A stretch of DNA of 64,000 nucleotides from positions 96,784,001 through 96,848,000 of the forward strand of contig NC_086107.1 in NCBI RefSeq assembly GCF_963921235.1, in the 5' to 3' direction. How positions within the stretch are numbered: position 1 is the stretch's first letter; every line of letters starts with the position of its first letter. Made by a program: the position numbers and the translations under genes. The notes below the pieces were generated by a model. The model was not told where the DNA came from. It saw only the letters and a list, made by a program, of their open reading frames with translations, and did no database searches. Origin of the DNA: Mobula hypostoma. Its lineage: Eukaryota. Below, piece by piece: positions 5,508 through 37,647 of this stretch.

Positions 5508-6707
5508 CTGTTGAGTCTGCTCCACTATTCAATCATTCTCCCCATTACCTTTAACCCTTTTACTGATCAAGAACCCATCGACCTCTGCCTTAAACACTCA
5601 ATAACTTGGTCTCCACAGTCACCTGAGGCAACGAGTTCCTCAGATTCTGGCCAAAGAAATTCTTCTTCATCTCAGTTTGAGCTGCCTTTACTTTGAGGCT
5701 GTGCCCTTGGCTGCCCCACTTGGCATCACTATCCATTGGGACCAGTAAACGATTACACCCCCTTCTGCCCTTGTGGAAGGGGTTTTGTGGCCATGTCCAC
5801 GCCCACAGTGGTGATCTGCACCTTCAACAAACTCTATGCATCTTTGGCCATGAGAAATGGGCGCTGTACATATCCTACAGGATCCTGAAGCCTTTCTGAA
5901 AGTTTTGAGCTTCTGACCATAACAAAACAAAGCAGCCATCACTTCTTCCTCAGATCTCACTGGTGCCCAGATGATGTCACACGCAGCTTCCCCATTTGAC
6001 CCATTGATCCATGGACTTGGTCCTTTCCAACACAGTTCCTGCATTTAGCAAGTGCCAGGACTCTCGCAAACCTGTCTGCTGCCCTGGAGCGTGATCGTGC
6101 CACATGCCCCCTGTGTAAAGGTTGTGCCAGTACACGTTCCCTGTGGTGCTGGCTGTTGTCTGTACTGCAGTCCTACCCCGCAACACCCTGTGAAGCTCCC
6201 AAGAGAACAACACTCACAGACTGAGGCTTCATCTCCTCCGCTGTCCCACTACAAGTGGTACTGGCTTTTCACTAAAACCCAGAAACGCAGAAAACTCCTT
6301 TTTCTCTCTGCCGAAATGCTATCCCAACCTCATCACCAATTGATGATGTCTTCCACTGACACATGCAGATGAAAGCAACAGGTATGTACGAACAAGGCTT
6401 AGCACCTACAACATGTACAGGTCACTTTTACAGGAACTGAATAAAAAGGAACAGGAATAGGCTAATCAGCCCCCAGAAATAGCTCCTCCCTTCGGTCACA
6501 TCACAGACAATCCCAGCAATCTCAGTACCACTTTCCCATTCTCTCCCCACACCCCTCGACTCCCTAACAGCTTCAATGCCTGCCTCCAACTTGCTCTCTC
6601 GTGCTGAATTATTATTGTCACATGTACTGAAATATCATGAAAAGCTATTGCTTCTGGACTATCTACAGAGATTATTCCAGACACAAAAATATCAAAGAGA
6701 AAGCAAT

Positions 6708-6975
6708 CAACAGGAATTCTGCAGATGCTGGAAATTCAAGCAACACACATCAAAGTTGCTGGTGAACGCAACAGGCCAGGCAGCATCTCTAGGAAGAGGT
6801 ACAGTCGACGTTTCAGGCCGAGACCCTTCGTCAGGACTAACTGAAGGAAGAGCTTACTAACTCTTCCTTCAGTTAGTCCTTACGCAGGGTCTTGGCCTGA
6901 AACGTCGACTATATCTCTTCCTAGAGATGCTGCCTGGCCTGCTGCGTTCACCAGCAACTTTGATGTGTGTTGCTT
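6708..6975. mobile_element. Palindromic Penelope-derived mini-element (two inverted pLTRs) with hammerhead motifs
   Basis: Inverted arms of about 115 bp (6738-6852 / 6861-6975) plus a 30-bp unpaired tail; 14-bp TSD aaagagaaagcaat (6694-6707, 6976-6989). Confidence 0.85.
6803..6838 (-). ncRNA. Minimal type I hammerhead ribozyme motif (intact core)
   Basis: AGTC-CTGACGA-AGGgtctcggCCT-GAAAC-GTC-GACT: stem I, catalytic core, stem II, palindromic ACGT stem III and GUC cleavage triplet. Confidence 0.75.
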
Positions 6976-8088
6976 AAAGAGAAAGCAATAACTGAATGCA
7001 GAATAGAGTGTTACAGTCAGAGAGCGCGCGCAGTGCAGGCAAACAATAAGGTGCAAGGGCCACAATGAGGTAGCTTGGAAGATCACAAGTTCTTTTTTTA
7101 ACATATGACAGGTCTGATAATATCAATACTGGGGAATTCTAAAGAATGACCCAAAACATTACGTAATTCTGTTTTCCCTTCACAGATGCTGCTTGACCTG
7201 TTGAGTATTTCCAGCATTTTCTGTTTTTATTTGAGACTTTCAACATCTAGTTTTCTTGATTTTTATCAAAATAGGTATATCACATCTAATAAAGTGCAGC
7301 ATGTCCATGTATGGCAACACACCATATTTGGCAGAAACCCTGTCTGCAATGTTTGAATGCAATTTTTAGCACGTTAGTAGGATATGTTAAAATATTACTC
7401 ACAGGAGTTTAACACTAAAACAGCAAACTGTAAAGTATTCTGAAATGTTTTGAAAATATTAATGCTTTTGGACAAGGTGGAATCAGACCATGTTGGCATA
7501 GAAAGCGGCCATTTTGTCCAGCAAATCAATGCCAGCTCCTACACGAGCAAGTTCAGTAATGGCAACCTCCAGCTTTTGCACAGTTACAAATTATTCCCTC
7601 TCAGAAGCTAACTGGCTCCCTTTTCAAAGCTCTGACTGTTTTCAGCACTACTATAGCAGTCAGAGCCAGACCGTTAACTACTCATTGTAAAAAAAAAGTC
7701 TCCTTGTCTCCCTCCGCACTGTTATCCAGAGCCTTAAAGGTGGTCCCTTAGAGAAATAGATTTATTTTTCTCATATTTTCTAAACTGTTCTCTCTTCATC
7801 TTACTGGTTCTCCAAGCTGACCTGATAACTAAACTCTTCCTGTATTGGAAGTATCCTTGTAGATGAGCATGCTCCCTCAAGGGGCTTCTGACATCCTTCC
7901 TTATGTAGGGTTACCAAAACAGGATGACCTGATAACTTCTTTTATGAAGTTCAAAATTCCACCTGCTTTACCTCTTAACATAGTGGTCAAGTTCCTGGAT
8001 AAGGGCAGCCAAGGGTAACCCTTGCATTATCACAGAGTGGGGTGGCACGGAATTAAAGATGCTCATGACAAGGTTGGAGCAAACTCAC

Positions 8089-8206: not shown

Positions 8207-9059
8207 CTGCAAGAAGAAATGCAATTGTCACCGCCAATATCCGCAATGCTGCTTCCACGTCCTCCCGGTACAGGCCTCATCCTAAACACCACCAGGGGGA
8301 GCCACCCCTTCTCCACTCATCCCCATGCACTGGGGGAGCATCCTCGATTGATTTTTCTTCCACCCCTCAGAGACAAGGGATTGTCCAACCCCCCTCCACA
8401 CTTTCTGTGATGCTGGCCATGGTTACCTGTAGAGCTGGCCAGTGAGAGGTACCCTCCTTTGTTTGGCTTGGTATAAGCAATGCCCATGCAGATGAATGCA
8501 CAAGGACTCCAACTGGTCACCTTCCCCCTCAGGCCTGAAAACATTCCCACTGTGAAGATTCTTCTGGTGAGCTTCGGATTGTACCCGTACCCACCCCCTC
8601 ATGGTCAGCACAGTGCGCATCGCCACAGAAGCACTGTGTTTTAGAAGCTCCCCTTCTCTCCTGCTCCTATTGCTTTACATCTTTATAGCTATTCTGTTGT
8701 CTTCTAGCCCTTTTTTTTAAGGTTATGAGGATGCGCAGTCCTCTTTTATTGTCATTTAGTAATGCAGGACTCTTTCTAGTCCTGAAGAGGGGCTTCTGCC
8801 TGAATTGTCGACTGTTTATTCTTTTCCATAGATACTGCCCAATCTGCTGAGTTCCTGCAGCATTTTGTATGTGTTGGTTTGGATTTCCAGGATCTCGTGT
8901 TCTTTGTGGTCATTTTATTCACAATGTCTAGTTCTTCGGTTCAACCCTTATCCCATCCTTTCACTCCTGGAGTTGCTTGCTTTCAACTGGATGGCCCAGA
9001 TTTTACACACTTTCAGCACTGATGGCAACATCCAAATGAAAATCCAAATTCCATTCTCA

Positions 9060-9520
9060 ATCCTGTTCTGACATGTCAGTCCCTGGCCTCCTGTTGTGCC
9101 GAGATGAGGCCACTCTCAGGGTCGGGGAGCAACACCTTATTTTACATCTGGGTAGTCTCCAACCTGGTGGCATGAATATGGTCTTCTCCTTCCGGTAAAA
9201 AACAATTCCCTCCCCTTTTCCTCTTCTTCTATTCCCCACTCTGGCCTCTTACTTTTTCTCACCTCCTGGGTCTTCTCCTCCTTCCCTTTCTCCTATGGTC
9301 CACTCTCCTCTCCCATCAGATTCCTTCCCATCCAGCTCTTTACTAGCTTCACCTATCACCTTCTAGCTATCTTCCTTCCCCCTCTCCAAACTTTTTCTTT
9401 TGGCATCTTTTCCCTTCCTTTCCAGTCCTGAAGAAAGGTCTGGCCTGAAACGTTGACTGTTTATTCCCTTCTTTAGATGCTGCCTGACCTGCTGAGTTCC
9501 TCCAGCATTTTGTGTGTGGC
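9060..9520 (+). mobile_element. Penelope-like element 3' fragment (GIY-YIG tail plus pLTR with hammerhead motif at about 9424-9458)
   Basis: Translates DMSVPGLLLCRDEATLRVGEQHLILHLGSLQPGGMN, then a pyrimidine tract and agtcCTGAAGA...GAAACgttgact. Confidence 0.75.
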
Positions 9521-11345: not shown

Positions 11346-12188
11346 GGCTCAAGGCACTTCAACCCCACTGTTACCAGACACTTGAGCAGATCTCTTGTAT
11401 GTAGAAAGATGGGCTCTTGATTTTCCAAACTATCTCATCGTGGCCCACGCGAGCCTGGTCCCCAGCAGTAGCTGAGGAAATGTGAAGCAGAGCTTCACCG
11501 GCACTGCACAGTGTACTTGTGCAGGGAGGCATCCACACTCACAAGGTGACCCCGGTGGTGTCCAGATGTGTATCGTGTGTTGTTGGATCCATTCCAAATG
11601 CTCTGCATGCGACATCTTACCCATGGAGAACCAGGATGTTCCCACTCACAACTTTCAACATTTTGAGGGAGTGTGGATCATGGACACAGACCCACTTCCA
11701 TGGAATTCCATCCCCCCACCCTTCCTGCTCCTTTGGCAGGCTGGCCTACTTCAGTTCCGGCCTTTCACAGCCATTCTTTTCTCACCTTTGCTGACATCCC
11801 ATGATGAACACGCGAGGAACTGGATGGGGGGGGCCATTCAGCCCCTCGTGTCTGCTGCACTGTTCAGTGAGACCACAGCTGACCTTTCAACTCGGCTCCA
11901 TTTACCTGCATTAACCCCTCTATCAACCTCTGACCCAAACACACGCAGTGACTGAGCCTCCTCAATTCTCCTGGGCAAAGGGTTCCAAACATTCACATCC
12001 TCAGGTGAAGGGATTTGTTCCCAGCTCAGTCTGACGGCTGGACCTCACCTTGTTGACTGTGACCCAATAGACAACAGACAATAGGTGCAGGAGTAGGCCA
12101 TTTGGCCCTTCGAGTCAGCACTGCCATTCACTGTGATCACGGCTGATCATCCACAACCATGTGTGGTTCGAGTGTTTTCCTCACCTAC

Positions 12189-12270
12189 CAGTTGTCATTG
12201 TTGATCTGATCTCCGAATCCAGGTGTGTCAATCACTGTCAGCTTCATCTTCACCCCCTTCTCCTCGATGA
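12189..12270 (-). CDS. SEPTIN3: Septin-3 coding exon with G3 DTPG motif ([28 protein letters not shown])
   Basis: ttctttccag|TCATCGAG...AACTG|gtaggt; 82 nt, phase 1 in, phase 2 out. Confidence 0.96.
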
Positions 12271-12446
12271 CTGGAAAGAAGATAAAACCATCATGTCCAT
12301 TATAATGAGTGCATTGGCTTTGAGTGTTTTTTTTAAACTTTCTGGGAGTGGTAGGTTACCAGTGTTTGGCTGGTCGTCAACAACTGACTGATGAAGCTGA
12401 TGTTGTCCAATGAACTGCCTCTAACTCTGGAGCCCCAACTCCAGTC

Positions 12447-12565
12447 AACCTGATTGGTTCAGAGCAACTCTGCTCAACCTGATTGGTTCAGAGCAACTCT
12501 GCTCGACCTGATTGGTTCAGAGCAACTCTGAAGCCCCAACCCCATTCAACCTGATTGGTTCAGAC
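12447..12565. repeat. 29-bp tandem repeat (about 3 copies plus a fourth partial) containing TGATTGG
   Basis: tgattggttcagagcaactctg at 12451, 12480 and 12509, partial copy at 12552. Confidence 0.85.
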
Positions 12566-14560
12566 CCCAGCCTACTTGCTGTTTTCCCTGTAAAATGGCA
12601 GAGCTGCTGACCAGTTGCTATAAACTTGCTGCCTATATCTTGCTGCGGAGCCTGGGTGGGTGTGAGGGTGAGCTGCTTACTCTGGGCTTGTTCTGAAGTA
12701 CGTTGCTGCTTATTTCTCTTACTGGGCCCAGAAGCACGGAATGGGATGTTTGGTGATGTTCAGTTCCACTCTCACCTCCTCAGAAAGTGAGTAATCCAGT
12801 GTGCGAACACCTTTACCAGAACTGCAGGGGTACATGATAATGGCTCACCACCATTTTCCCCAGGGCAATTCGGGTCTAACCAGCAATACCCAAGTCCCAA
12901 AAACGGAATAAAACTGAAAAGGTAATTAATTGGAATTGGTTTATTGTTGTCACATGTACCGTGGTACAGTGAAAAGCTTCTCTTGCATTCTGTTCATACA
13001 CATCAAATCATTACACAATGCTTTGGGTTAGAACAAGGTAAAATAGTAACAGAATGCAGAATAAAGTATGATAGCTGCAAGAGAGTGTCCAGTATAGGTA
13101 GACAAGATCATAACAAGACAGATTGTGAGGACAAAAGTCTATCTTATTGTACTAGGGAACCATTCAATCGTTCTCTGCCAGTGGGGTAGACGCTGTCCTT
13201 GACCCTGGTGGTATGTGCGTTCAGACTTTTGTATTTTCTGCCCCACGAGAGGGGGAGAACAAAAATGTCTGGGTTGTCGTTGGGGTCTTCAATTATAATT
13301 TTAATGCTTTACCATGGCAGTGAGAAATGTAGACAGAGTCCAAGGAGGGGAAGTTGGTTTCTAGGATGTGCTGAGCTCTGACCACAACTCTCTACAGTTT
13401 CCTGCAGTCACGGCTAGAGTAGTTGCTATTCAAGGCATGATGCATCCAGAAACGATACTTAGCATGATACATCAATAAAAAGGGTTGATGGGGGACATCT
13501 CAAATTTGTTTTTAGCCTTCAGGTGAAGTAGAGGTGGGATGACAGCTGGAGAAGCAGGTAAGATCTCATGAGGTTTGGTGTAATATATTGGCATGGGTTG
13601 AGATGTGGGTTAGCGATGCTGGGTGGAGGACACAAAAAGCTTGCAGAGAGACAGAGATTGGTTTAGTAGTTGCCAGATGGAGTGCAATGTGGTTATTTCA
13701 GAAGGAGGAATGGAAAAGCAGTTTATTATTTAAATAACGTAGCACTGCACAATGAAGACACAAGAGACCGCAGATGCTGGAACCTAGAGTAATAAAACCT
13801 GTTGGAGAAACTCAGTGAGTCAGGCTGCATCTGTGAAGACAGGAGGGCGGCTGGCTTTTCAGGCCACACCCTGCATCAGGACTGACTGTATGGACAGGAG
13901 ATAGTCAACGTGAAGAGGTAAGGGGTGAGGCACAGGCTGGTAGTCACAGGTGGAACCAGTTGAAATGAAAGGCAGATGGACTCTGGTGGGAGTGAAGACA
14001 GAAATAGAGCTAGACTTTCCAGCCTCTTTTCCCTCTCTCCATTTCTGCCTCCATTACAGTATTACAGTGGAGTAACGGGAATTGCAGAGAGGAGCTGGCC
14101 AAAGTTGATTGGAAGGGGACACGAGCAGGGATGACGGTAGAAGAGCAATGGCTGGAGTTTCTGGGGGCAGTTCGAAAGGCACAGGATAGATATATCCCAA
14201 AGATGAGAAAAGTCCGCAAAGGGGAAGATGAGGCAACCGTGGCTGACAGCATAAATGCAAAAGAAAGGGCATATAATACAGTAAAAATTAATCGTAAGTT
14301 AGAGGATTGGGAAGCTTTTAAAAACCAAAAGAAGGCAACTGAAAAAGAGCATAAAGAGAGAAAAGATGAAATATTAAGGTAAGCCAGCCAATAAATATCA
14401 AAGAGGATATTAAAGGTTTTTTTTCCCAGATATATAAAGAGTAAAAGAGAGGCAAGAGGGGATATTGGACTGCTGGAAAATGATACTGGAGAGGTAACAA
14501 TGGGGGAGAAAGAAATGGAGAACTTTTTTTCCAGATATATAAAGAGTTAAAGAGAGGCAA

Positions 14561-14818
14561 CACTCACAATGCGCTGGAGGAACTCAGCAGGTCATTCAGC
14601 ATCAGTTGAAAAGATTAGTCGATGTTTCGGGCCGAAACCCTTCGTCAGGACTGAAGGAAGAACTTTCAAACCCTCCCCAACATTCTTCCTTCAGTCCTGA
14701 CGAAGGGTTTCGGCCCGAAACGTCGACTAATCTTTTCAACTGATGCTGACTGACCTGCTGAGTTCCTCCAGCACATTGTGAGTGGTCCTTTGACAACAGC
14801 ATCTGCAGATTATTTTGT
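14561..14818. mobile_element. Palindromic Penelope-derived mini-element inserted in the CR1
   Basis: Inverted arms at about 14561-14662 / 14683-14784 plus a tail; TSD gttaaagagaggcaa (14546-14560) vs gttaaaaagaggcaa (14819-14833). Confidence 0.85.
14693..14728 (+). ncRNA. Minimal hammerhead ribozyme motif (intact); mirror copy on minus at 14617-14652 with AUC triplet
   Basis: AGTC-CTGACGA-aGGGtttcggCCC-GAAAC-GTC-GACT. Confidence 0.75.
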
Positions 14819-17420
14819 GTTAAAAAGAGGCAAGGGAGGATATTGGACCGCCAGAAAATGATACTGGAGAGGTAATAATGGGGGACAGAGAAATGGAGGA
14901 CACATTTATTATTTTGCATCAGTCTTCACTGTGGAAGACACCAGCAGTATGCCAGAAATTCAAGAGTGTCAGGGGGCAGAAGTGAGTGTAGTTGCTATTT
15001 CTGAGGAAAAGGTGCTTGGGAAGCCGATGGGTAGATGAGCCGCCTGGACCAGGTGGGCTACACCCCATGGTTTTGAAAGAAGTAGCTGAAGAGATTGTGC
15101 AGGCATAAAAATGATCTTTCAAGAATCACCTGATTCTGGAATGGTTCCTGAGGACTGGAAATTGTAAATGTCACTCCACTCTTTAAGAAGGCAGGGAAGC
15201 AGAAGAAAGGAAATAATAGGCCAGGTAGCCTGACTTCAGGGGTTTGGAAGATGTTAAAGTCCATTATGAAGGATGAGGTTATGGAGTTCTTGGTGAGACA
15301 GGTCAAGATGGGACAAAGCCAGTATGCTTTCCTTAAGGGAAAACCTTGCCTGACAAACATGTTGGAATTCTTTGAGGAGATTACAAGTAGAATAGATAAA
15401 TGGGATCAGTGGATGTTGTATATTTGGATTTTCAGAAGGTCTTTGACAAGGTGTCACACATGAGGCTGCTTAACAAGATAAGCAAGTATCTTGTTGAGGA
15501 AGTGTATCCTTCTGGTTGGCTGCCAGTGACAAGTGGTGTTCCACAGGGGTCGGTATTGACTCCACTTCTTTTCACATTATATGGCAATGATTTTGATGAC
15601 AGAATTGATGGCTTTGTGGCCAAGATTTTAGGTGATATAAAGACAGGTGGAGGCACAGGTAGTATTGAGGAAGCAGGGAGTCTGCAGAAGGGCTGGGACA
15701 GATTGGCAGAATGGGTGAAGAAATGGCAGATGGAGGTGTATGGTCATGCACTTTGGTAGAAGGAATAAAGGCATGGACTATTTTCTAAATGGGGGAAAAT
15801 TCAAAATTCAGAGCTGCAAAGGGACTTGGTTAACTCACAGGTAGAGTTAGTGGAAAGAAAGGCGATGTTAGCATTCATTTCAAGAGGACTGGAATACAAG
15901 AGCAAGGATGTAATGCTGAGTCTTTACAAGGCATTGGTCAGACCGCACTTGGAGTACTGTGAGCAATTTTAGGCCCCTTAACTAAAAGATGTGCTGACAT
16001 TGGAGGGGCTCCAGAGGACGTTCATGAGAATGATTCCAGGAATGAAAGGGTTAACATCTGAGGAACATTTGAATGCTCCGAGCCAGTAGTCACGGGAACT
16101 TAGAAGAACGAGCAAGGACCTATTACATATTGAAAGGTCTAGACAGAATGAATATGGAGAGAATGGTGCATCTAGGACCAGAGGGCACAGTTTCAGGATA
16201 GGAGGATGTCTATTTAGAACAGAGATGAGGAGGAATTTCTTTAGACGCCAGAGGGCACTGAACCTGTCGAATTCATTGCCATGGATGGCTGTGGAGACCA
16301 AGTCATTGGGTATATCTAAAGCAGAGTTTGATAGTTCCTTAGTTCATCAGGGCATCAAAGGTTACAAGGAGAAGGCAGGAGAATGGGGTTAACAGGAATA
16401 ATAAATCAGCCTTGATGAAATGGCAGGGCAAGGTTGATGGGCTGAGTGGCCTAATTCTGCTCCCACGTTTTATGGTATCTTCCTGTTATCCACCAGTCAC
16501 AGTCCCCCTACTTCTCCTTCATACGTCTTGATTGCTTGTATGTCATCTCAACTTGTAATGACAAAGACAAGGTGTTTCAATCGTTTACACTTTTATTCCT
16601 GCCTTTTGAGGAGGATTTAAGGAAGACTGGGGTGCCAAGGTAACATCATGGTTAGTGCAACGCTATTGCAGCTCAGGGCATTTCAAGTTTGGAGTTCAGA
16701 GTTCAACTCCGGTGCTGTCACTAAGGAGTTGGTACTTTATCCCCGTGACTGCATAGTTTCCTCCAGGTGCTCTGGTTTCCTCCTACTTTCCAAAGGCGTA
16801 CCAGTCAGTAGGTTAGTTGGTCATTGTAAATTGTCCGGTGATTAGGCCAGTGGCTAAATCGGTGGGTTGCTGGGCAGCATGCTCATTGGGCCTGTTCTGC
16901 ACTCTCTCTCCAAATTAAAAAAATAATTAAAGGATTGATTGGGAATCCTAGATTACTTGGCAATAGGGAGAAATCTGTCTACAGGAACGTAAGGAAGGAG
17001 GAAATCTTATTCATCAGCTAAAACTGGCGAGAGGCTAGAAAACCTGACCCAGATCCTGGTTCAAGAGGGAAATTTGAAGACTTACTATGAGTTTTGAATG
17101 ACACATTTTGAATGATTTTGCTTGTAGGGCGAAAGGGCCAATTACAAGTCAGCTACATGGTTACAGTGTAGACCTGAGACAAGAACCACCGATGTACAGG
17201 ATTAGCAGCTGCCACTTTGCAACCATCACATGCTCAGTAAGAAGCTGGAAAGGGGGAATTTACTCCTTCCGGTCTTGCAGAAGGAAAATTCATCTGTTGT
17301 TTCTCAGTGCTGCACCCAACAGGGATTTACCTGCAAACTGCCGTCTCTAATCTCAGTTCAGTTTTGTCTCCTTTACCTGGAAGAGTAACCATAAAGACTC
17401 TAGTTTACAAATATTCTCAC

Positions 17421-17549
17421 CGTGTCCAACTGTTTTGATCTCCACTGTTTTTGGGACTTTCTCTTCCCGGTTTCGACCGCAGGATTTCCGACTAACTTGT
17501 GACTTGAACAGGGTGTTCACCAGAGTTGACTTCCCCAGACCACTCTGCC
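17421..17549 (-). CDS. SEPTIN3: Septin-3 coding exon with P-loop (GQSGLGKSTLVNTLFKSQVSRKSCGRNREEKVPKTVEIKTVGH)
   Basis: cttgctctag|GGCAGAGT...GGACACG|gtgaga; 129 nt, phase 1/1; G1 GxxxxGKS motif. Confidence 0.96.
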
Positions 17550-17899
17550 CTAGAGCAAGTGAGGAAAGGAAATCAGTATTTGTTTAAAAAGGGGAAAGGG
17601 AAAATGAAAAAAATATCTCGAATGTGCTCAGCTGCTGAATTTGGACGGAAGGGAAAGGAAACAGCTTGGCAAATTGGAGTCAAAACTGCATATAGACATA
17701 AAATCACAGAGGTGTGCAGAACAGAAACAGGCCCTTCAGCCCATCACTTCCATGCTGACCCTTTTGCCCATCTACACTAATTCCACTTGCCTGGATTGGG
17801 ACCATACATTTGCTTCTTTCTGTCTAAGTTCCTCATAAATGTGGTGATTATATCTGATTCCACCATCTCCTCTGGAAGTGCATTCCAGGTAGCTCTTCC

Positions 17900-19468
17900 C
17901 TGTGCAGTCCATTTATTTTTGTCTGCCCAACATGCTTTTTGTATGTGTCCTACTTTGTTGCATTTTTTGCAAGTTTCGCCTTTAAATCTGCATTGGTTTG
18001 GTGTATGAGAGCCCCTGCCATAATGGTAACAGACTTGTTTGGCTTTGCCAGTTTCTGTTTAGAGTTTGTTCAATCCTGACTACAACATAATGATGTCTCT
18101 GTCTACTGTTTCCATTGATACAGCTATTTCAACTGCTCTTTTAAATGTAAGTTGTGCATCAGTTAGGAGCCACTTTTGAAGGCTTTCTTGTAAGATTTCA
18201 CAAAAACTAAGCGATCTCTCAGTGCAACATTAAGCCCATCACTGAACTAAGAATGCTCAGACAACTTCTTCAATTCAGTCACACACACTGAAATGAACTT
18301 CCCTTCCTTTTGATTCTGCTTATGAAACTAAAGTGTTTTCCAATCAACAATGGTTTTGGTTCTAAATATTCCTGCTTTACTTTCATGATATCAGCTAAGT
18401 TCATTTTGGCTGGTATTGTTGGAGCAGTTGAATATCTAAGCAAACTGTATGACCTTAAACCCAATACACTCAGCAAAACTAGTACTCATTTCTCATTAGC
18501 TATTCCATTTGTCTCAAAATACTGCTCAATTTTCTCAGTATACAATATTCAGTTATCTGTTGTGCAATCAAACACATCTAACATTCTGATGTAGCCAACA
18601 TTTCTGCTCCTTTTGTTTATTTGTGATTATGATCACCCTGTGCTCACAATTTATGAACCTGTGAATATGTCCGTTTTCTGCTTTTTTTAAACTCAATCTT
18701 CTCTGTCTCCCTTTTCTGAAGAGACACTTGCTGTGCTACTTTTTTAAAAACTTGAATGTCTTGCTGTGCTTCAAAAGGTAGACAGTTGTCTTGGGTTTAT
18801 TTAAAACTTAATCATCACCACTGTTATGCTTTGTAGCTCTAAAACGTTAAACTATCTTAAAGATTAAACCTCATTGAAACCCAGCAAATGCTGAAAGGCC
18901 TCAGCAGAGTGGATGCGGAAAGGATGTTTCCTATGGTGGGGGAATTGAAGACAAGAGGGCACAGCCTCAGAATAGAGGGACGTCCTTTTAGAATGGAGAT
19001 GAGGAGGAATTTCTTCAGGCAGAACATGGTGAATCTGTGGAACCTGTTGCCGTAGGCGGTTGTGGAGACCAAATCATTTGGTGTATTTAAAGCAGAGGTT
19101 GATAAATTCTTCATTAGTTAGAGCATGAAGGGATATGGGGGAGAAGGCAGGAGATGGAGTCTGAAAGGGAAATGGATCAGCCATGATGAAAAGGTGGAGC
19201 CGACTCGATGGGCCAAATGGCCTGATTCTGTTCCTATATCCCATGATCTTATAGTTGAAAACAAAAACATGGATCCAGGAGTTACGTATCCTAGGTTTGT
19301 TTTTACTTTAAGCGAGGCACGCACGCATAACATAACAGGATCATAATGTATGCAATTGACTTATTTTTACGTATAACCTGCAAGTATTTCTCTAAATGAT
19401 CAAGAATGCTTAATCAAACAATATATTTACAATATTACTCAAATACTACTGAAATATTAAATACTAGA
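17900..19468 (-). mobile_element. Gypsy LTR retrotransposon remnant: 5' LTR (about 19468-18822, split by a CR1 insertion), PBS-like site and pseudogenised gag
   Basis: Minus-strand translation gives LYTEKIEQYFETNGIANEK*V.VLLSVLG...LEPKPLLI and knuckles CYHYGRGSHTPNQC / CKKCNKVGHIQKAC. The LTR end ...cataaca is followed by gtggtgatga. Confidence 0.8.
18862..19252 (+). mobile_element. CR1 3' fragment nested in the Gypsy LTR
   Basis: LKGLSRVDAERMFPMVGE..TRGHSLRIEGRPFRMEMRRNFF plus the 3' tail. Confidence 0.8.
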
Positions 19469-20009
19469 TCCCAATAATCAAAAGTTGACAATGTACACTA
19501 GGAACACAGTTACGCTGAAAGGGTGAGAGGTCGTCAGCTGGGTGGGAATACAGTCGTGCGGCTGTTTCATTATCAGGAGCATCACTGCCCTGCATGCCTC
19601 CACTGGTTCAGCCACTGACCTGACAGTAGACCTCACAGGGTGTCTGGCGGGTCAGGTCAGGTCTGCAGGTTTGATTTGTGAAATGGTGCTCTGACTCTGG
19701 GATTAAATCTGAAGAATTATTTTATATGAATCAGTCGTCTTAAAACTGAACAAGTACTAAAATCTGAAGGCACCAGAGGGAGGCATCGAGTTCATGCTAA
19801 AAGGACCTCTGCAAGTGTTGAAAGAGATTGAATCACTGGCTGACGCTCTCTGGGAGTGGGAGTCTCCGGGGACATTTGGATCATTTTGCTAATTGCAGAG
19901 GTGGTAATAGTTATTGGCTGCGTTATTCAACTTGCACTGACTGAAGCAGAGGTCTACGTTGTGTGCACGCTCAGAAGCATTGTGAGTGTGTGTTTGTGTG
20001 TGTGCTCAG

Positions 20010-20012
<3 letters not shown>

Positions 20013-20049
<37 letters not shown>
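20013..20049. repeat. (TG)n microsatellite
   Basis: Direct reading. Confidence 0.95.
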
Positions 20050-20058
<9 letters not shown>

Positions 20059-21403: not shown

Positions 21404-21598
21404 CCACGACCATGATATTAAAATCGAATCCTGTCTTCATGGTCTTCCGTCGCATTTGCTCGATGATGGTGTCAATTCCCACGTAGCCCAGTAGCTGGGA
21501 GCCCACTGCCGATGGTTTCATGGGCACAGCGGGCTTGGGTTTGGCATCTTGAACCACTTCCGACATGCCGGAGCCCGGTTTTCTATCCTCTTCCAAAC
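21404..21598 (-). CDS. SEPTIN3: Septin-3 first common coding exon (GLEEDRKPGSGMSEVVQDAKPKPAVPMKP...GYVGIDTIIEQMRRKTMKTGFDFNIMVV)
   Basis: cttcctcaaag|GTTTGGAA...GTCGTGG|gtaaga; 195 nt, phase 1/1. PKPAVPMKP and IDTIIEQMR.KTMKTGFDFN point to SEPT3 rather than SEPT9 or SEPT12. Confidence 0.95.
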
Positions 21599-21619
21599 CT
21601 TTGAGGAAGCAGATGACAG

Positions 21620-27849: not shown

Positions 27850-28068
27850 ACATTCTGCAGAGGCTGGAAATCCAGAGCAGCACACACACAAAATGCTGGA
27901 GGAACTCAGCATCTATGGAGATTTCAGGCCAAGACCCTTCTTCAGGACTAAGGTAAGTCATGTCTTGGACACTGAAGATTGGTCTCGGCCTGAAACGTTG
28001 ACTGCTTATTCATTTCCATAGATGCTGCCTGACCTGCTGAGTTCCTCCGGCATTTTATGTGTGTTGCT
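27850..28068. mobile_element. Older, decayed palindromic Penelope mini-element
   Basis: Inverted arms atgctggaggaactcagca / tgctgagttcctccggcat; degenerate hammerhead cores CTGAAGA on both strands. Confidence 0.65.
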
Positions 28069-32104: not shown

Positions 32105-33340
32105 TACATAGGTTGATAAAATTTATGAGAGGCATAGACATGATAGAGAGTCAAAGACTTTATCCCAGGACAAGAGAGTGCAGAAGAAGACACGGGTTTC
32201 AGGTGAGAGGGGAGAATTTAAGGCAGGTCTGACAGGATAAGTGTTTCACAGAGAGAATGGTAAATATCTGGAATGAGCTGCTGGAGGAAGTGGGCGAGGT
32301 GGGACAATAACAATGTTTAAAAGGCCTTTTTCTCTTTTGCATTTAAATCCCTTACTTCCAGCTTCTTTCGGTTAAGGTTTACGATTTTTTTTATGTGTAA
32401 ACATATTATAGCTCAGGTAGTAGGCAATATACCTTTTTATAAATACAGCTCTGCGGTGATAAAAGTTCTGATTAACTTTTCTATATATCGTAAGGTTGGC
32501 TTGGAGTTGGGTAGTGGGTGGGTGGGTGGGTGGGGTGGTAGCTAACTTTATATGATTCTACTATGGGTGATTTTCCTTAACTGTTATAAACTGGCCCATT
32601 CCCATTCTGATATGTCTATCCATGGCCTCCTCTACTGTAAAGATGAAGCCACACTCAGGTTGGAGGAGCAACACCTTATATTCCGTCTGGGTAGCCTCCA
32701 ACCTGATGGCATGAACATTGACTTCTCAAACTTCCGCTAATGTCCCACCTCCCCCTCATACCCTATCCATTATTTATTTATTTATATACACACATCCTTT
32801 TTCTCCCTCTGTCCCTCTGACTATACCCCTCGCCCATCCTCTGGGCTTCCCCCTCCCCCTTTTCTTTCTCCCTGGGCCTCCTGTCCCATGATCCTCTCAT
32901 ATCCCTTTTGCCAATCAACTGTCCAGCTCTTGGTTCCATTCCTCCCCTTCCTGTCTTCTCCTATCATTTTGGATCTCCCCCTCCCCCTCCAACTTTCAAA
33001 TCTCTTACTAGTTCGTCCTTCAGTTAGTCCTGACGAAGGGTCTCGGCCTGAAACGTCGACTGTCCCTCTTCCTAGAGATGCTGCCTGGCCTGCTGCGTTC
33101 ACCAGCAACTTTTATGTGTGTTGCTGTACATTTGATATGTTTGTTTTGCACTGTATAAACTTCTTTTTTACTGTTTTTGTTGTTGTTGCATTGTAGAAAC
33201 TTATAAAAAATTAATTTAAAAAAAGGCCTTTGGATGGGTTCGGATAGGGAAGGGGTATGGGGCTAATGGAGTAAATAGAATTAGCATAGATGGACATCAC
33301 AGTCAGTGTGGACAAGCTGGACTGAAGGGCTTAATTCTGT
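32105..33340 (+). mobile_element. Nested cluster: CR1 3' end, containing an L1-like 3' UTR (about 32331-33220), containing a Penelope 3' fragment (about 32591-33124)
   Basis: The CR1 text is interrupted and resumes at a duplicated aaaaggccttt. The inner piece translates HSHSDMSIHGLLYCKDEATLRLEEQHLIFRLGSLQPDGMNIDFSNFR. Confidence 0.75.
33026..33061 (+). ncRNA. Minimal hammerhead ribozyme motif in a Penelope pLTR
   Basis: AGTC-CTGACGA-AGGgtctcggCCT-GAAAC-GTC-GACT, identical to 6803-6838. Confidence 0.75.
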
Positions 33341-33799: not shown

Positions 33800-36211
33800 T
33801 TTTTGTTCATTCACAGAATTACAAACTGAAGACAGCTGAGGAAGAGCCTGCGTTCATCGGTGCTAGAAACTGTCCCCATCCCGCTGGCTGGACCTGCAGC
33901 CCCACTGACCCGGCGCACACGCTGACCAGCATGCCGTGAACTTCCCGACATCAGCCTGATATAGTCTTCCTCCGCTGGGACTGCTTGCTCAGCTTTGAAG
34001 ATTTACACCGAGCCGATTCCGCCAGCACGCAGCCAACAGGGGCCGAAGGTCGAGCCGGCAGTGTGGCTGAGCGGTGGGGTCAGTGCTGCCGGCTCACAGT
34101 TTCAGAGACCCGGGTTCAACCCTGACCTCCGCCGTTGTCTGGCGTTCGCACGTGTTCCCCGTGACCACGTGGATTTGCCCCACGTGCTCCGGTTTCCTCC
34201 CCCCACCCCAAAAGGCTGGTGGGGGTGAATCGGCTGGTGTGAATCGCCCCTGGTGTAGGTTACTGTCACCCTCACTACCCATATCCCTCTTGCCACACAC
34301 CACTTCTGTCACCTCGATAACCCTCACTACCAGTATCCCTTCTCTGCCACAAACCACTTCTGCAGAGAACTTACTGAGTGCAGGCTGGACCTGTAGGTTG
34401 TTTCCTCGTCCACAGTCTATTTCCCTCAGAATCCCCCTCCTCCTACAGTCTTCCTCCTCCTACAATTTCCTCTCCCCGCAATCTCACCCCCTCAACACCT
34501 CTTCTCCTCAATCGCAGTCCCACTCCTCCTCTGCCATAACCTTCTTCTACCTGTTTCCAAGCAAACTCCCCTCCTACTAACGCTGTGCTGACTCCCCCAG
34601 ACAGGAACAATCGTCATGTCTACTCTTCAGCACCCCCCCCCACCAGCTCCCTGCTCCCATCCCACATAGCTCGCCCTCAGCCTTGTGCTCTGCGCTCCCC
34701 TCTGCCCCTCCTGCCGCCCTGCCCTCTTTCGTCCCCTTCCCAACCTACTTCCCACGCCACTCACTCCAGGAATTCCCCCAGCTGCCTCCCATCCCACTCT
34801 GAAGCAGCTTTAAAGTTCTGCGTTCAGATGGCCTCCTGCCTTGCCCCATCCACAAGATTCCATCCTTCCCTTTCTGGAAAGTTCTCTCGCAAGGAACCTT
34901 CAGTCAACAGGCCCAATCTTGGTGGATCAGTTGCACCCCACCCCTCCTCTATCCAGCCCTTTAACACTTCTGCAGTTTCAAGCCCTATTCCAGCAGAGAA
35001 GCAGGAGGATTCTGTACTCACAGCTCTTCCCCCGAGACTTTTTCAGGTTCTGCGTGTTAGGAAAGGACATCAGTTGTGACGTTCCTGACGAGTCACTGGC
35101 CCCCTATTGGTTTGTGCCCTCTATCTCAGTGAAACACAGCAGGAGGTGAAGACTGATAAGGAATAGCTGTTAGCTGAGAACCAAACCCACACCGATTTCC
35201 ACAGGCTGGCCGGGAGTGGGCTCACCTCTGGAAGACCCAGGGACTGCCTGTTGCTGAATTCCCCCCCGTTGTCTCGCTGCCCCTCCTTTGCTCTTTGTTG
35301 CCCCCTGTCATGACTCATAGGGGAAAGCCACGGATTGGCTGCTGTGGCACGGTGGGTGACCTGCTGTCCCATTCACACCAGCTGATTGGTTCTCAGTTTA
35401 CGGCCGACAAAGTCACCCAGCCTTATTGTGTCTGGTGTCTGGTTCATCCCCACACACACAGGGAGGAGTCAGGGGTGAGGCAGGGCCATGGTTACTGGTG
35501 TGTTAGCAACAGGGGGTAGGTTGAGGCTGTGACCGAAGCTGGTTATTGGCGGGCGATGCCCAGGCTGAATATTGGACCTCAGGCCTAGGCCTAGGCTGGA
35601 GCTTGCTGCTCAGGTGGGACCCATGCCTGGTACAGGGCAGCCCACCACCGGCTGGGCTCAGCCCAGTCTGAGGCCTTTCTTTGAGGCCTCAGTCTTCACA
35701 TCCTTTGCAGGTCACTGAGGTCACCTAGCTCACAATTCTCTGAGAGCTCCCTGTGAGTAAGTTACTCTTTCTGGGGGGGAGGGGGGAAGAAATTCCCACT
35801 CCCACCACATCTACCTCAAACATTAGCAAAGTTTCTCTCCATGGTTGCTGCCTGACCTGGTGAGCCTTCCTAGAATTTTCCATTTTTATCCTTTCCCCAC
35901 AGCCTCTGTTGATTTTCGAGGGAAGTTGGCGTCTCTTATTGCCCTCATATAAGACGCTCAACTTTCCTTTCGCGCGTGGAAGGTCGTTTATGTTAGGGGA
36001 CTCTCGGTAAGCTTGATCCTAGAATTGTCCACTAATCGCAGTAAAATAACAATAATTCTAACTGGCTGCATCCATGGTATGGGGGGGGGAGGTGGGGGCT
36101 AATATCAAAATAAGCTGCAGAGAGTTATAAACTTAGTCAGCTCCATCATGGGCACTAGCCTCCAGGCCACCTTCAAGGAGCGGTGACTCAGAAAGGCAGC
36201 GTCCATCATTA

Positions 36212-36416
36212 CTCACAGCATGCTGGAGGAACTCAGCAGGTCAGGCAGCATCCGTGGAAAAGATTGGTCGACGTTTCGGGCCGGAACCCTTCGTCAGGAC
36301 GTTTCCGGCCCGAAACGTCGACCGATCTTTGCCACGGATGCTGCCCGACCTGCTGAGTTCCTCCAGCGTGTTGTGAGTGTTGCTTTGACCCCAGCATCTG
36401 CAGATCATTTTGTGTT
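36212..36416. mobile_element. Palindromic Penelope-derived mini-element inside a Rex1-like LINE fragment; hammerhead motif on minus at 36267-36300
   Basis: TSD agcgtccatcatta (36198-36211) vs agcatccatcatta (36417-36430). The minus arm reads gtcCTGACGAagggttccggcccGAAACGTCgac; the plus arm lacks the CTGACGA half. Confidence 0.85.
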
Positions 36417-37647
36417 AGCATCCATCATTAAGGATCCCATCACTGAGGACATACCCCCTTCTTGTTGTTACCATCAGGTAGGAGGTACAGAAGCCTGAAG
36501 GCACACACTCAGCGATTCAGGAACAGCTTCTTCTCCTCTGCCATCAGATATCTGAATGGACATTGAAACCATGAAGACTACCTCACTACTAATTTTCTAT
36601 TTTTATTTTTGCACAATTTATTGAATTTAACTATAACTATTTTATATATACACTTACTGAAATTCACAGTTTTTTCCTCTATTATTATGTATCGCATTGT
36701 ACCGCTGTCACAAAGACAACAGATTTCATGACGTATGCCAATGATATTAAACCTGATTCTGATCTGCTCTCCAATTATTCAGAATTCCCAGTGGTTGGAC
36801 ATCTCCACTCACTGGTCGTCATTTCCCATGGTCCCTTTAAACCCATCGAAGCCCCAGTACCTGTGGTCGCTGTAAGGTTACCATTGGCCCCTTTCTGCAC
36901 TCTCCTTAAACTCGCTGGAAGATTGACAAAACTGCTGTGGAACATGTAAAAAAAGTGATTGGAAGTGTGTTGGGGGTTTTTGTGCTATTGAAGTCATGAG
37001 GGAACTAGACTCAGAGAATTTTACTGTCAAGACCAAGGCTGATTGAATCCTTTGAGCAACAGGGATTCCAGGCTCATTAAAAACCACCACAAATTACAGA
37101 TCCTGTTTCAATATTGGGGATAAAGACCCATCAAAGAACCATCAAACAAGTAGAAATTATAGGGTCCCTTTAGTCACAGGGGATAAAAGGCCACGTTAAA
37201 CTGAGGTTACAGATTGAAAAAGTTTTGGGTGTCCAGGCCGGAAGTAAGGGACAGGCCTGTTCAGATCACTGCTCCATGAAGTTTGCTTGGCTCTGCGCTG
37301 AAACATAGGACTCTTGTGGACTCCAGTTCAGAATGCTGGTTGCTTGTGGATTTTTTTCTCTCTCTCTGCACATTGGGTGTTCGACGGTCTTCTTTTTTTT
37401 TATATATATGGGTTCTTTTTTATGGGCATGATATGTTTTCTTTTCTCTTTGCTTATTGGGTGTTCAGTGGTCTTTTTTTTAAATGGGTTCTTTTGGGTTT
37501 CTTTGTTTTGTGGCTGCCTGTAAGGAGACGAATCTCAAGGTTCTATAATTTTTGCATACTTTGATAATAAATATACCTTGAACTTTGAGGCCTGATGAGC
37601 AACCAGTGATTAGAGTCTCCAATTAAACAGTGAGACACAATAAACTG

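What the first reader, a model, noticed from the sequence alone, without database searches (positions are those of the whole stretch)
6694..6989. Hairpin mini-element made only of two inverted hammerhead-bearing Penelope pLTRs
Seen: a 268-bp insertion with a perfect 14-bp TSD, two inverted arms of about 115 bp, a 30-bp unpaired tail and no coding sequence. Each arm has a hammerhead motif: intact on minus (6803-6838), core mutated to CTTACGC on plus. The same architecture recurs with different arm sequences at 14561, 36212 and 27850, and more decayed at about 38900 and 47940. Established: Penelope-like elements carry minimal hammerheads in their pLTRs and often insert with an inverted pLTR plus a short tail. 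Inference: these are either extreme 5'-inverted truncations or a self-propagating, non-autonomous, ribozyme-bearing rod-like RNA family (retrozyme-like) that is very abundant in this genome.
Basis: partly seen in the sequence, partly recalled or inferred. Interest (0 to 1): 0.75.

Follow-up and report, generated by a model that had tools for sequence, protein, structure and literature searches.

The report
Abortive hairpin insertion of Penelope element
This 268-bp hairpin is a stunted, dead-on-arrival copy left by a very abundant Penelope-like jumping gene, one of thousands made afresh at each insertion and not a self-copying ribozyme element.

Summary
Window 6708-6975 is a 268-bp insert between perfect 14-bp target duplications. 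It has two inverted arms of about 115 bp, an 8-nt junction and a 30-nt tail at one end. One arm keeps a minimal hammerhead; in the other the core is mutated. The arms match the 3' end of a Penelope-like element (PLE) encoding reverse transcriptase plus a GIY-YIG nuclease.

- The arm-loop-arm junction occurs 4 times in the 3.48-Gb genome, against 45,492 copies of the tail.
- In a sample of 60 tail-bearing copies, 23 are mini hairpins with 23 different junctions. Twenty-one of the 23 have their own 11-19-bp duplications.
- The mutated core is private to this copy.
- Each strand carries only one hammerhead, buried in a -226 kcal/mol rod.

Each hairpin is therefore made anew as an abortive PLE integration product. 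Arm inner ends pile up 120-149 nt from the 3' end, and 6 of 23 hairpins are exactly symmetric. That points to copy-back at a discrete stop, possibly the RNA 5' end (inferred, untested).

This is ordinary PLE biology in an extreme, very abundant form (about 12,000-23,000 copies).

The parts
6694..6707 (.). Left copy of the 14-bp target-site duplication AAAGAGAAAGCAAT
   Evidence: perfect direct repeat with 6976-6989.
6708..6737 (-). Tail: a 30-nt 3'-terminal extension of the element (sense strand is the window minus strand), present at this end only
   Evidence: The same 30-mer occurs 45,492 times in the genome (<=1 mismatch) and 0 times in the reversed control. In a tandem master copy it continues into the 5' region of the next ORF.
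6738..6852 (-). Direct (sense) arm: the last 115 nt of the PLE 3' region, reaching 145 nt from the element's 3' end
   Evidence: It aligns to the 3' end of linear copies that carry the RT/GIY-YIG ORF.
6804..6834 (-). Intact minimal type-I hammerhead core (CUGACGA, helix II, GAAAC-GUC|GAC). The predicted cut lies between 6807 and 6806, 99|100 nt from the 3' end. The helix I 5' strand reaches 6840.
   Evidence: pattern match. The motif was read against the min-HHR descriptor of Cervera and de la Pena 2014 (passages). Rfam gives no hit.
6853..6860 (+). 8-nt junction (CTTACTAA): the inverted arm runs 8 nt further than the direct arm; no filler nucleotides
   Evidence: the same letters precede the arm in the linear copy at window 33004-33125 and in other loci.
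6861..6975 (+). Inverted arm (a copy of the same 115 nt in the opposite orientation, no tail). Hammerhead core mutated to CTTACGC at 6879-6885.
   Evidence: The mutation is private: the other 18 aligned copies do not carry it (15 read CTGACGA, 2 CTGACAA, 1 CTGAGGA). The arms differ at 6 of 115 positions.
6976..6989 (.). Right copy of the 14-bp target-site duplication
14549..14833 (+). Second mini hairpin, from a different PLE family: TSD 14549-14560 / 14822-14833 (12 bp, 1 mismatch), arms 14561-14662 and 14683-14784, 20-nt junction, 37-nt tail 14785-14821, hammerhead cores on both strands
   Evidence: Its junction 30-mer is unique in the genome, against 597 copies of its tail.
36198..36430 (+). 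Third mini hairpin: TSD 36198-36211 / 36417-36430 (14 bp, 1 mismatch), arms 36211-36286 and 36303-36378, tail 36380-36416
27850..28068 (-). Decayed mini hairpin of a further family: tail 27850-27878, residual inverted repeat 27882-27911 / 28035-28064. No TSD found.
33004..33125 (+). Linear (non-hairpin), tail-less copy of the same family's 3' end with an intact hammerhead. It shows what lies upstream of the arm in an uninverted copy.

Best explanation
The 268-bp hairpin is a single, complete but abortive integration event of an abundant canonical (RT + C-terminal GIY-YIG) Penelope-like element. The element's reverse transcriptase starts inside its RNA, at the site that leaves the 30-nt tail. 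It copied only about 145 nt of the 3'-terminal region, including the minimal hammerhead. A second, tail-less copy of the same stretch was then laid down in the opposite orientation. Staggered target nicks left the 14-bp duplication. The hairpin was therefore created at insertion. It lacks the ORF and the sequence downstream of the start site, and it did not propagate as a unit. The mutated hammerhead core and the other arm mismatches arose later. Shown here: PLE origin, one event per hairpin, a different junction in each copy, no unit amplification, and a sharp pile-up of arm inner ends 120-149 nt from the 3' end. Inferred: how the inversion forms. Copy-back of the nascent cDNA fits the exactly symmetric subset. 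Priming from both nicked target strands at two adjacent start zones, as seen in vitro for an Anolis PLE, may account for the rest. Also inferred: the pile-up marks a discrete 5' end of the template RNA.
For: (1) PLE origin. The arm and tail are the 3' end of longer copies with ORF pieces bearing RYIDD and CX2C...GVIYCVRCSRCGLLYIGET. GIY-YIG scores E=9.8e-4, below the Pfam cutoff. Of the 286 relatives found (best 120 listed), listed ones carry PF00078, PF01541 and PF26215. Full units lie in tandem about 3.51 kb apart.
(2) Junction test. The window's 28-mer occurs 4 times genome-wide against 45,492 tails. Hairpin B's junction occurs once against 597 tails.
(3) Census. I took the first 60 of the 100 listed exact tail matches. 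They comprise 23 mini hairpins, 2 borderline, 13 short solo copies, 7 of 181-1000 nt, 7 running off the fetched stretch, and 8 with a long arm. The 23 hairpins have 23 distinct junction coordinate pairs, some with filler and some with microhomology.
(4) One event each. TSDs of 11-19 bp (median 15) flank 21 of 23 hairpins and 10 of 13 short solos.
(5) Arms share a source. Within-copy arm divergence is 39/1742 (2.2%), against 3535/75160 (4.7%) between copies. Copies of one subfamily have different junctions (L009/L011, L007/L013).
(6) The CTTACGC core is private to the window copy (1 of 19).
(7) Continuum. Asymmetric forms have one long arm carrying ORF sequence (L033, L036, L038, L039, L041; 8 of 60).
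(8) Internal initiation. Tails extend 0-12 nt with letters (TTTGCGTTTT...) matching or close to what follows the tail in a tandem master copy; there the ATG lies 38 nt past the 30-mer.
(9) Discrete stop. 36 of 65 inner ends <=200 nt fall at 120-149, and none at 180-238.
(10) Symmetry. 6 of 23 hairpins are exactly symmetric, against 1.26 expected (P=0.00045 by shuffling).
(11) Literature. An inverted 5'-truncated copy and a one-sided 30-40-bp tail are typical of PLEs (Craig 2021, passages). An Anolis PLE protein nicks and extends both strands and starts at two adjacent internal sites that delimit the tail (Frangieh 2024, main text).
Against: - Four copies share the window's junction, so a few re-mobilisations or duplications are not excluded. 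One of them (L009) belongs to a different subfamily and has a different outer end, which favours recurrence.
- The census covers only exact-tail (young) copies from the first 3.8 Mb of one contig, n=60.
- Copies longer than the 1-kb fetched stretch, and 'no inverted arm' calls for mid-length copies, are uncertain.
- In 2-3 hairpins (L075, L101, perhaps L093) the arms differ at subfamily-diagnostic sites, so a single-template copy-back cannot explain all of them.
- None of the 33 inverted arms carries the tail. Neither simple copy-back nor random use of two start sites predicts that.
- No RNA data could be obtained. The RNA 5' end and the template requirements are argued by analogy with a distantly related PLE.
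- The RT domain itself got no Pfam hit here.
Confidence: 0.85

Rival explanations
1. The hairpin is a self-propagating, non-autonomous, retrozyme-like element. The rod RNA would be transcribed, processed by its hammerheads, possibly circularised, and reverse-transcribed in trans by the PLE enzyme, amplifying as a unit.
For: The architecture is very common: 23 of 60 sampled tail-bearing copies. The window holds three clear hairpins, three decayed ones and a further decayed hairpin-like fragment at 9424-9518. The arms carry a hammerhead motif, and the RNA would fold as a rod. Four copies share the window's junction. PLE-derived retrozymes are proposed in vertebrates (preprint 10.64898/2026.07.22.740005, abstract and passages).
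Against: - Junction count is 4 against 45,492 tails, and 1 against 597 for hairpin B.
- The 23 census hairpins have 23 different junctions.
- There is no shared arm asymmetry.
- Each strand carries only one hammerhead, and it is of the minimal type said to need a second copy in the same polarity. Release at both ends is therefore impossible.
- The motif is buried in a roughly 118-bp duplex (-226 kcal/mol).
- The hairpin ends at the RT start site and lacks what follows it in master copies. In the Anolis system that downstream region is required for templating.
Confidence: 0.03
2. It is a MITE or foldback-type DNA transposon: terminal inverted repeats moved by a transposase, with a TSD.
For: It has long inverted repeats, a TSD, small size and no coding capacity.
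Against: - TSD length varies from 11 to 19 bp between copies. This is unlike the fixed TSD length I recall as typical of DNA transposons.
- The ends are asymmetric, with a tail at one end only.
- The inner junction differs in every copy.
- The arms are collinear with the 3' end of an RT/GIY-YIG retroelement, and arm lengths grade into ORF-bearing copies.
Confidence: 0.01
3. The hairpin arose after insertion, either by two independent short PLE insertions landing head to head or by replication or recombination making a palindrome from one copy.
For: The family is dense, about one tail per 76 kb. Nested and adjacent copies do occur (L088/L089; L052/L053).
Against: - One TSD brackets the whole hairpin, here and in 21 of 23 sampled hairpins.
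- The inverted arm never has a tail (0 of 33). Independent insertions selected by nothing should often have one.
- The arms of one copy are closer to each other than to other copies.
- 38% of copies having a second hit exactly abutting is far beyond the chance expected at one copy per 76 kb.
Confidence: 0.03
4. A functional overlay that does not exclude the main explanation: some hairpin loci are used by the host as sources of double-stranded RNA (siRNA, piRNA or miRNA-like) against the PLE.
For: The RNA would form a near-perfect 118-bp duplex. Generic miRNA-precursor models score below threshold (mir-4788: 41 bits against a gathering score of 91). Thousands of such loci exist.
Against: There are no expression data. 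The Rfam hits are what any long hairpin gives. The window copy is decaying (6 of 115 arm mismatches) with no sign of conservation.
Confidence: 0.08

Closest known systems
Complex insertions of canonical EN+ Penelope-like elements: inverted 5'-truncated copy plus one-sided 30-40-bp tail (Craig et al. 2021, PMC8557442, passages read; Frangieh et al. 2024, PMC11167929, main text read; Evgen'ev and Arkhipova 2005, recalled only)
   Same: - RT plus GIY-YIG partner.
- Minimal hammerhead in the terminal repeat.
- Tail at one end only.
- Adjacent inverted truncated copy.
- Variable TSD.
- Tandem master copies.
- Internal start of reverse transcription.
   Different: Here both copies are truncated to about 115-145 nt, so nothing but the two terminal fragments remains. 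This mini form is the commonest product in the sample (23 of 60). Inner ends cluster at 120-149 nt. In this family the start zone lies about 40 nt upstream of the ATG, not 111-118 nt inside the ORF as in the Anolis element.
Metazoan non-LTR retrozymes (review PMC7761336, passages; preprint 10.64898/2026.07.22.740005, abstract and passages)
   Same: Small, non-coding, hammerhead-bearing, derived from PLE terminal sequence, and presumably dependent on a PLE enzyme.
   Different: Retrozymes are direct tandem repeats with hammerheads in one polarity, which release unit-length RNA that circularises. The hairpin has its two motifs on opposite strands, does not amplify as a unit, and ends at the RT start site. 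A true retrozyme-like 310-bp direct tandem array of this same family does exist elsewhere in the genome.
LINE-1 twin-priming inversions (Ostertag and Kazazian 2001; recalled, not read here)
   Same: A 5' inverted segment joined to a 3' direct segment within one TSD-flanked retrotransposition event. The junctions show microhomology or small gaps.
   Different: In twin priming the two segments copy adjacent, non-overlapping parts of one RNA. Here both arms copy the same stretch, a quarter are exactly symmetric, and the two outer ends differ systematically by the tail.
Snap-back (hairpin) self-priming of first-strand cDNA by reverse transcriptases, and copy-back defective genomes (textbook knowledge, recalled)
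   Same: It gives perfect palindromes with tiny or no loops. The exactly symmetric hairpins here (e.g. 131/131, 132/132, 139/139) show the same form.
   Different: Simple snap-back should copy the whole first strand including the tail, yet the inverted arm always stops 23-45 nt short. It also does not explain the asymmetric junctions.
MITEs and foldback elements
   Same: Short, non-coding, with long inverted repeats and a TSD.
   Different: The TSD length is variable, the ends are asymmetric, each copy has a unique centre, and the arms are homologous to a retroelement's 3' end.

Membership tests
Penelope-like element insertion (canonical EN+ PLE) | Sequence belongs to an element whose single ORF encodes an RT followed by a C-terminal GIY-YIG endonuclease | tested here: met
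   Arm and tail are collinear with the 3' end of copies carrying ORF pieces with RYIDD and GVIYCVRCSRCGLLYIGET. GIY-YIG scores E=9.8e-4, below the curated cutoff. Relatives carry PF00078 + PF01541 + PF26215. No Pfam RT hit was obtained on the pieces themselves.
Penelope-like element insertion (canonical EN+ PLE) | 30-40-bp tail present at only one end of the insertion | tested here: met
   A 30-nt tail lies at 6708-6737 only. In the sample, 0 of 33 inverted arms carry it.
Penelope-like element insertion (canonical EN+ PLE) | Adjacent inverted 5'-truncated copy forming inverted repeats | tested here: met
   (118 nt, 94%). Among the 53 sampled copies that do not run off the fetched stretch, 33 have an adjacent inverted arm.
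Penelope-like element insertion (canonical EN+ PLE) | Hammerhead motif in the terminal repeat | tested here: met
   motif read. Not recognised by Rfam.
Penelope-like element insertion (canonical EN+ PLE) | Master copies in tandem or partial tandem, with reverse transcription starting inside the RNA | tested here: met
   ORF matches lie 3,510-3,516 bp apart. In L110 the tail runs on into the next ORF's 5' region. Tail extensions of 0-12 nt in insertions match or resemble that continuation. The enzymology itself is not testable here.
Minimal type-I hammerhead (min-HHR of Cervera and de la Pena 2014) | Core CUGANGA ... [quoted passage not shown] | tested here: met
   CUGACGA-A-GGGU...GCCU-GAAAC on the minus strand at 6834-6804. 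Descriptor features come from the passages.
Minimal type-I hammerhead (min-HHR of Cervera and de la Pena 2014) | Conserved G10.1-C11.1 pair closing helix II | tested here: inconclusive
   In this copy the pair reads G-U (GGGUCUCGGCCU). It is G-C in hairpins B and B2 (GGGUUUCGGCCC, GGGUUCCGGCCC) and in several older copies. No double compensatory change was seen.
Minimal type-I hammerhead (min-HHR of Cervera and de la Pena 2014) | No helix III or loop 3; palindromic 15.2-16.2, so that two copies pair | tested here: met
   GAA-ACGU-C|GAC: ACGU is self-complementary with no loop.
Minimal type-I hammerhead (min-HHR of Cervera and de la Pena 2014) | Self-cleavage | not testable with these tools
   No assay is available. 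Published min-HHRs cleave poorly in vitro, and the Anolis PLE ribozyme needs the protein.
Non-LTR retrozyme | Direct tandem repeats, each with a hammerhead in the same polarity | tested here: not met
   The two motifs are on opposite strands, and there is no tandem repeat at the locus.
Non-LTR retrozyme | Propagation of the unit as such (same unit boundaries at many loci) | tested here: not met
   Junction counts are 4 against 45,492 tails and 1 against 597. The 23 sampled hairpins have 23 different junctions.
Non-LTR retrozyme | Unit-length circular RNA | not testable with these tools
   No RNA run is on record for this sequence. The runs laid were contigs of unknown kind.
MITE / foldback DNA transposon | Fixed-length TSD and symmetric terminal inverted repeats shared by all copies | tested here: not met
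   TSDs range from 11 to 19 bp. The tail is one-sided. Centres are variable.

The most novel reading that the evidence does not exclude
The mini hairpins are not random truncations. They would be the regular 'strong-stop' by-product of the way PLEs start reverse transcription. Every PLE mRNA carries the internal start site about 135-145 nt from its own 5' end. An enzyme that starts there runs off the RNA after about 120-149 nt and then turns back on its own cDNA, or meets a second cDNA primed from the other nicked strand. The genome's roughly 12,000-23,000 hairpins would then be an in vivo record of the RNA 5' end, of two start zones about 30-40 nt apart, and of both-strand priming. As near-perfect inverted repeats of the element's own 5' leader, they could feed double-stranded RNA back against the active elements.
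Probability: 0.25. Interest if true: 0.55.

Novelty: new member of a known kind. Interest (0 to 1): 0.3.

Why it matters
For annotation: tens of thousands of short TSD-flanked inverted repeats in this genome could be mistaken for MITEs, miRNA-like hairpins or novel ribozyme elements. They are PLE debris. They probably also account for many 'dispersed minimal hammerheads' of the kind reported in animal genomes (review passage).

For PLE biology: how the inverted copies and the one-sided tail arise is still described as unresolved (Craig 2021 passages). The only biochemical data come from one lizard element. The census here gives natural-product statistics that any integration model must explain:
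- two start zones;
- a tail that is never on the inverted arm;
- a sharp stop at 120-149 nt;
- an excess of exactly symmetric junctions.

The finding does not reveal a new kind of mobile RNA.

Tried and rejected
- Rfam. Zero families reached gathering score over the whole window. At E<=10 over 6650-7050 only generic hairpin-like sub-threshold hits appeared (mir-4788, mir-4667, CC3664 and others). I rejected these as artefacts of a long inverted repeat.
- Pfam. The four other ORF pieces gave nothing. One piece gave GIY-YIG below the curated cutoff.
- RNA evidence. No RNA holder was listed. Four coded runs of unknown kind, held as contigs, were laid. They hold the arms at very high summed depth and many different joints, but contigs cannot show starts, strands or transcription. 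I draw no conclusion on expression from them.
- Enlarging the census to 100 copies.
- Cutting out full-length copies for the 5' end. One search returned matches but no loci. The ORF 5' region is absent from the 357 kb held. The idea that the 120-149-nt pile-up is a transcription start could therefore not be tested.
- A pair of long head-to-head copies, both with tails (L052/L053), was examined as a possible 'two-tail' event. No TSD links them, so it is left unresolved.
- An 80-nt, 88% direct similarity flanking hairpin B was considered as a giant TSD. I rejected this because it is far more diverged than the hairpin's arms.
- Earlier notes of this scan: nothing fitted.
- Literature. Three full-text searches (listings only, plus the passages cited) turned up no paper that treats hairpin-only mini insertions as a class. 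[quoted passage not shown]
Full report
WHAT IS THERE

- A perfect 14-bp direct repeat, AAAGAGAAAGCAAT, lies at 6694-6707 and 6976-6989. It brackets a 268-bp insert at 6708-6975.
- The insert has a 30-nt unpaired end (6708-6737), an arm at 6738-6852, an 8-nt centre (6853-6860) and the complementary arm at 6861-6975.
- The repeat finder reports arms of 118 nt at 94% complementarity, 8 nt apart.
- The minus strand carries CTGACGA-AGGGTCTCGGCCT-GAAAC-GTC|GAC at 6834-6804. The plus-strand arm reads CTTACGC where the core should be (6879-6885).

Read in its own sense (the window's minus strand), the element runs: inverted arm, junction, direct arm with intact hammerhead, tail.

The motif fits the published descriptor of the minimal PLE hammerhead (passages of PMC4209133).
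- It has the CUGANGA and GAAA cores.
- It has an extra base before helix II.
- It has no helix III, only a self-complementary ACGU.
- The closing pair of helix II is G-U here. It is G-C in the window's other hairpins.

Rfam recognises no hammerhead at either threshold. The ribozyme assignment therefore rests on the motif, not on a model score.

- 14561-14784 and 36211-36378 are clear.
- 27882-28064, 38901-39024 and 47944-48117 are decayed remnants.
- Each has one tail-like extension at one end.

WHAT IT BELONGS TO

The window lies in a 3.48-Gb assembly. The arm plus tail is the 3' end of longer copies. Some of these carry ORF pieces with an RT motif (FLRYIDDCIGA), a CX2C linker and GVIYCVRCSRCGLLYIGET.
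- Pfam gives GIY-YIG only below its cutoff, and gives no RT hit.
- A protein search found 286 relatives. The best named ones are uncharacterised proteins of rays and sharks. Listed relatives carry PF00078, PF01541 and PF26215.
- RT followed by a C-terminal GIY-YIG nuclease is the definition of canonical EN+ Penelope-like elements (abstract of PMC8557442).
- ORF matches number in the thousands of candidates. Some frames are open for more than 1,000 codons, and some copies lie about 3.51 kb apart in tandem.
- In one tandem junction (L110) the 30-nt tail runs straight on (TTTACGTTTAAATTC...) into the next unit, whose ATG lies 38 nt past the tail.

IS THE HAIRPIN A REPLICATING UNIT?

I ran that test.
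- The 28-mer occurs 4 times (<=1 mismatch). The 30-nt tail occurs 45,492 times (<=1 mismatch, 0 in the reversed control).
- For the second hairpin, the junction 30-mer occurs once and its tail 597 times.
- I aligned 19 near-full-length relatives retrieved with the whole 268 bp. That set is biased towards the query's own junction. Even so, it shows at least 12 different centres.
- The CTTACGC mutation is present only in the window copy.
- Copies that share subfamily-specific letters in both arms (L009/L011, L007/L013) have different junctions.

CENSUS

For a less biased view I took the first 60 of the 100 listed tail matches. All are exact matches on the first 3.8 Mb of one contig. For each I fetched 1 kb upstream and 170 nt downstream and mapped them on a natural linear copy. 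The classes are:

| Class | Copies (of 60) |
|---|---|
| Mini hairpins (both arms <=180 nt) | 23 |
| Borderline | 2 |
| Short solo direct copies | 13 |
| Direct copies of 181-1000 nt, no adjacent inverted arm detected | 7 |
| Copies running off the fetched stretch | 7 |
| Inverted pairs with at least one long arm | 8 |

Further results:
- The 23 hairpins have 23 different pairs of inner-end coordinates. Some have filler letters and some have overlapping microhomology.
- TSDs of 11-19 bp (median 15, at most one mismatch) flank 21 of the 23 hairpins and 10 of the 13 short solos.
- Arms of one copy differ at 39 of 1,742 compared positions (2.2%). Arms of different copies differ at 4.7%.
- The window copy differs at 6 of 115 positions, so it is older than most of this young-biased sample.

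If the sample is representative, mini hairpins of this one family number about 17,000 (95% interval 12,300-23,200).

Each hairpin is therefore one integration event that created its own inversion. The unit as such has not multiplied.

WHY IT CANNOT WORK AS A RETROZYME

Retrozymes are direct tandem repeats. Their same-polarity hammerheads cut out a unit-length RNA that is then circularised (review PMC7761336, passages). The hairpin differs on each point.
- Each strand holds only one sense hammerhead.
- It is of the minimal kind, argued to need a second copy to form helix III.
- In the predicted fold it is locked in a roughly 118-bp duplex (-226.3 kcal/mol, z = -28.6).
- The hairpin ends exactly at the start site of reverse transcription. 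It lacks the downstream sequence present in master copies. In the one PLE studied in vitro, that downstream sequence is required for templating (PMC11167929). This last point is an argument by analogy.

HOW IT IS MOST LIKELY MADE

Shown by the census:

(a) The tail end is ragged. It extends 0-12 nt past the 30-mer, with letters (TTTGCGTTTT...) that match or closely resemble the master-copy continuation. Synthesis therefore starts inside a longer RNA.

(b) The outer end of the inverted arm lies 23-45 nt inside the 3' end in 27 of 33 cases, with modes at 33-34 and 42. It never includes the tail.

(c) Inner ends are not a decay curve. Of the 65 ends <=200 nt, 36 fall at 120-149 nt and none at 180-238. 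This is just beyond the 5' edge of the hammerhead, which spans 100-133 with its cut at 99|100.

(d) Six of the 23 hairpins are exactly symmetric, against 1.26 expected when arms are re-paired at random (P = 0.00045).

(e) Asymmetric forms grade into copies with a long ORF-bearing arm.

These observations fit two published points. PLE insertions often carry an adjacent inverted 5'-truncated copy and a 30-40-bp tail at one end, attributed to still undefined features of integration (PMC8557442, passages). A purified lizard PLE protein nicks and extends both target strands and starts at two adjacent internal sites whose interval is the tail. Its hammerhead is dispensable for insertion in vitro (PMC11167929, main text).

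My inference:
- The first cDNA starts at the distal zone, which gives the tail, and stops after about 120-149 nt.
- In the symmetric cases the enzyme turns back on its own product (copy-back).
- In the others, a second cDNA, started at the proximal zone from the other nicked strand, is joined to the first by microhomology or filler.

The sharp stop is most simply a physical 5' end of the template. An ordinary element mRNA would begin about 135-145 nt upstream of the start site. Initiation at that 5'-proximal site would then yield only a mini product. Full copies would need a read-through RNA from a tandem array. A 310-bp tandem derivative whose unit begins at about the same position is mild circumstantial support. 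I could not test this because no RNA run was listed and no further genome sequence could be fetched.

Unexplained: why the inverted arm is never tailed, and why in 2-3 hairpins the arms differ at subfamily-diagnostic sites.

COMPARISON AND VERDICT

The closest known thing is the ordinary complex PLE insertion. All of its sequence-level defining features that I could test are met.
- It works unlike a retrozyme (two defining features tested and not met).
- It works unlike a MITE (variable TSD, one-sided tail, unique centres).
- It resembles LINE-1 twin-priming inversions and RT snap-back products in outcome. Both comparisons are recalled, not read here.

The window's hairpin is thus a new member of a known kind. 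The additions are quantitative:
- the mini hairpin is the commonest product of this family;
- its inner ends mark a discrete stop;
- a quarter of the hairpins are perfect turn-backs.

Three literature searches found no paper treating such minis as a class. The PLE literature does say that all structural variants occur, so I do not claim the form is unreported.

Interest is modest. The exciting reading is refuted, the ordinary one is well supported, and the residual value is as natural-product evidence for the PLE integration mechanism and as an annotation warning.

Noticed in passing
L111 (G000:C2:157816650-157817400); a second locus lies on contig C50 near 58412479: A direct tandem array with a 310-bp period. 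Each unit holds the hammerhead-bearing arm from about 135 nt upstream of the tail end, the tail, and about 175 nt of the ORF 5' region, all in one polarity. Units are 99.8% identical. The unit junction occurs 6 times, at two loci (4 + 2).
   Followed up: partly
Genome places listed (pairs on contigs C40, C21, C2 and C12): Full PLE units in head-to-tail tandem, 3,510-3,516 bp apart. The tail-to-ORF junction 30-mer occurs 534 times (<=2 mismatches), about 1% of all tails. Frames open for more than 1,000 codons exist, so the family may still be active.
   Followed up: partly
window 14444-14523 and 14822-14901: An 80-nt direct similarity (88%) lies on both sides of the second hairpin, offset by about 105 nt on the left. 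It is too diverged to be a target duplication and is probably two copies of another repeat.
   Followed up: partly
window 46034-46573: Nested inverted repeats (arms of 45-64 nt at 84-97%, spaced 78-340 nt) from an unrelated element. They are not similar to the PLE arms.
   Followed up: no
window 53218-53264 / 53548-53594: A 47-nt inverted repeat (83%) with arms 283 nt apart. Unidentified.
   Followed up: no
L103 (G000:C1:396909-402600): Two long copies of the PLE lie head to head, each with its own tail, with no target duplication linking their outer flanks. They may be two events or one event with a target deletion. The reference copy L039 also ends its alignment at 934 nt in two unrelated loci (L053, L067), which suggests an internal rearrangement in the reference.
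   Followed up: partly
window 7184-7206, 8777-8895, 9424-9518, 51986-52065: Further short fragments of PLE terminal sequence, 72-87% identical to the arms. The one at 9424-9518 matches both arms (77%) and carries a hammerhead-like core at 9428, so it may be a further decayed hairpin. This 64-kb window holds about ten PLE 3' ends and no PLE ORF.
   Followed up: partly
coded runs X1 and X5 laid on window 6600-7100: Contigs of two coded organisms hold the arm sequence at very high summed depth. The depth collapses over the inner part of the right arm, and there are many different joints with different filler letters. The same family with variable centres therefore seems to be abundant in other sequenced samples. 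The kind of library is unknown.
   Followed up: no
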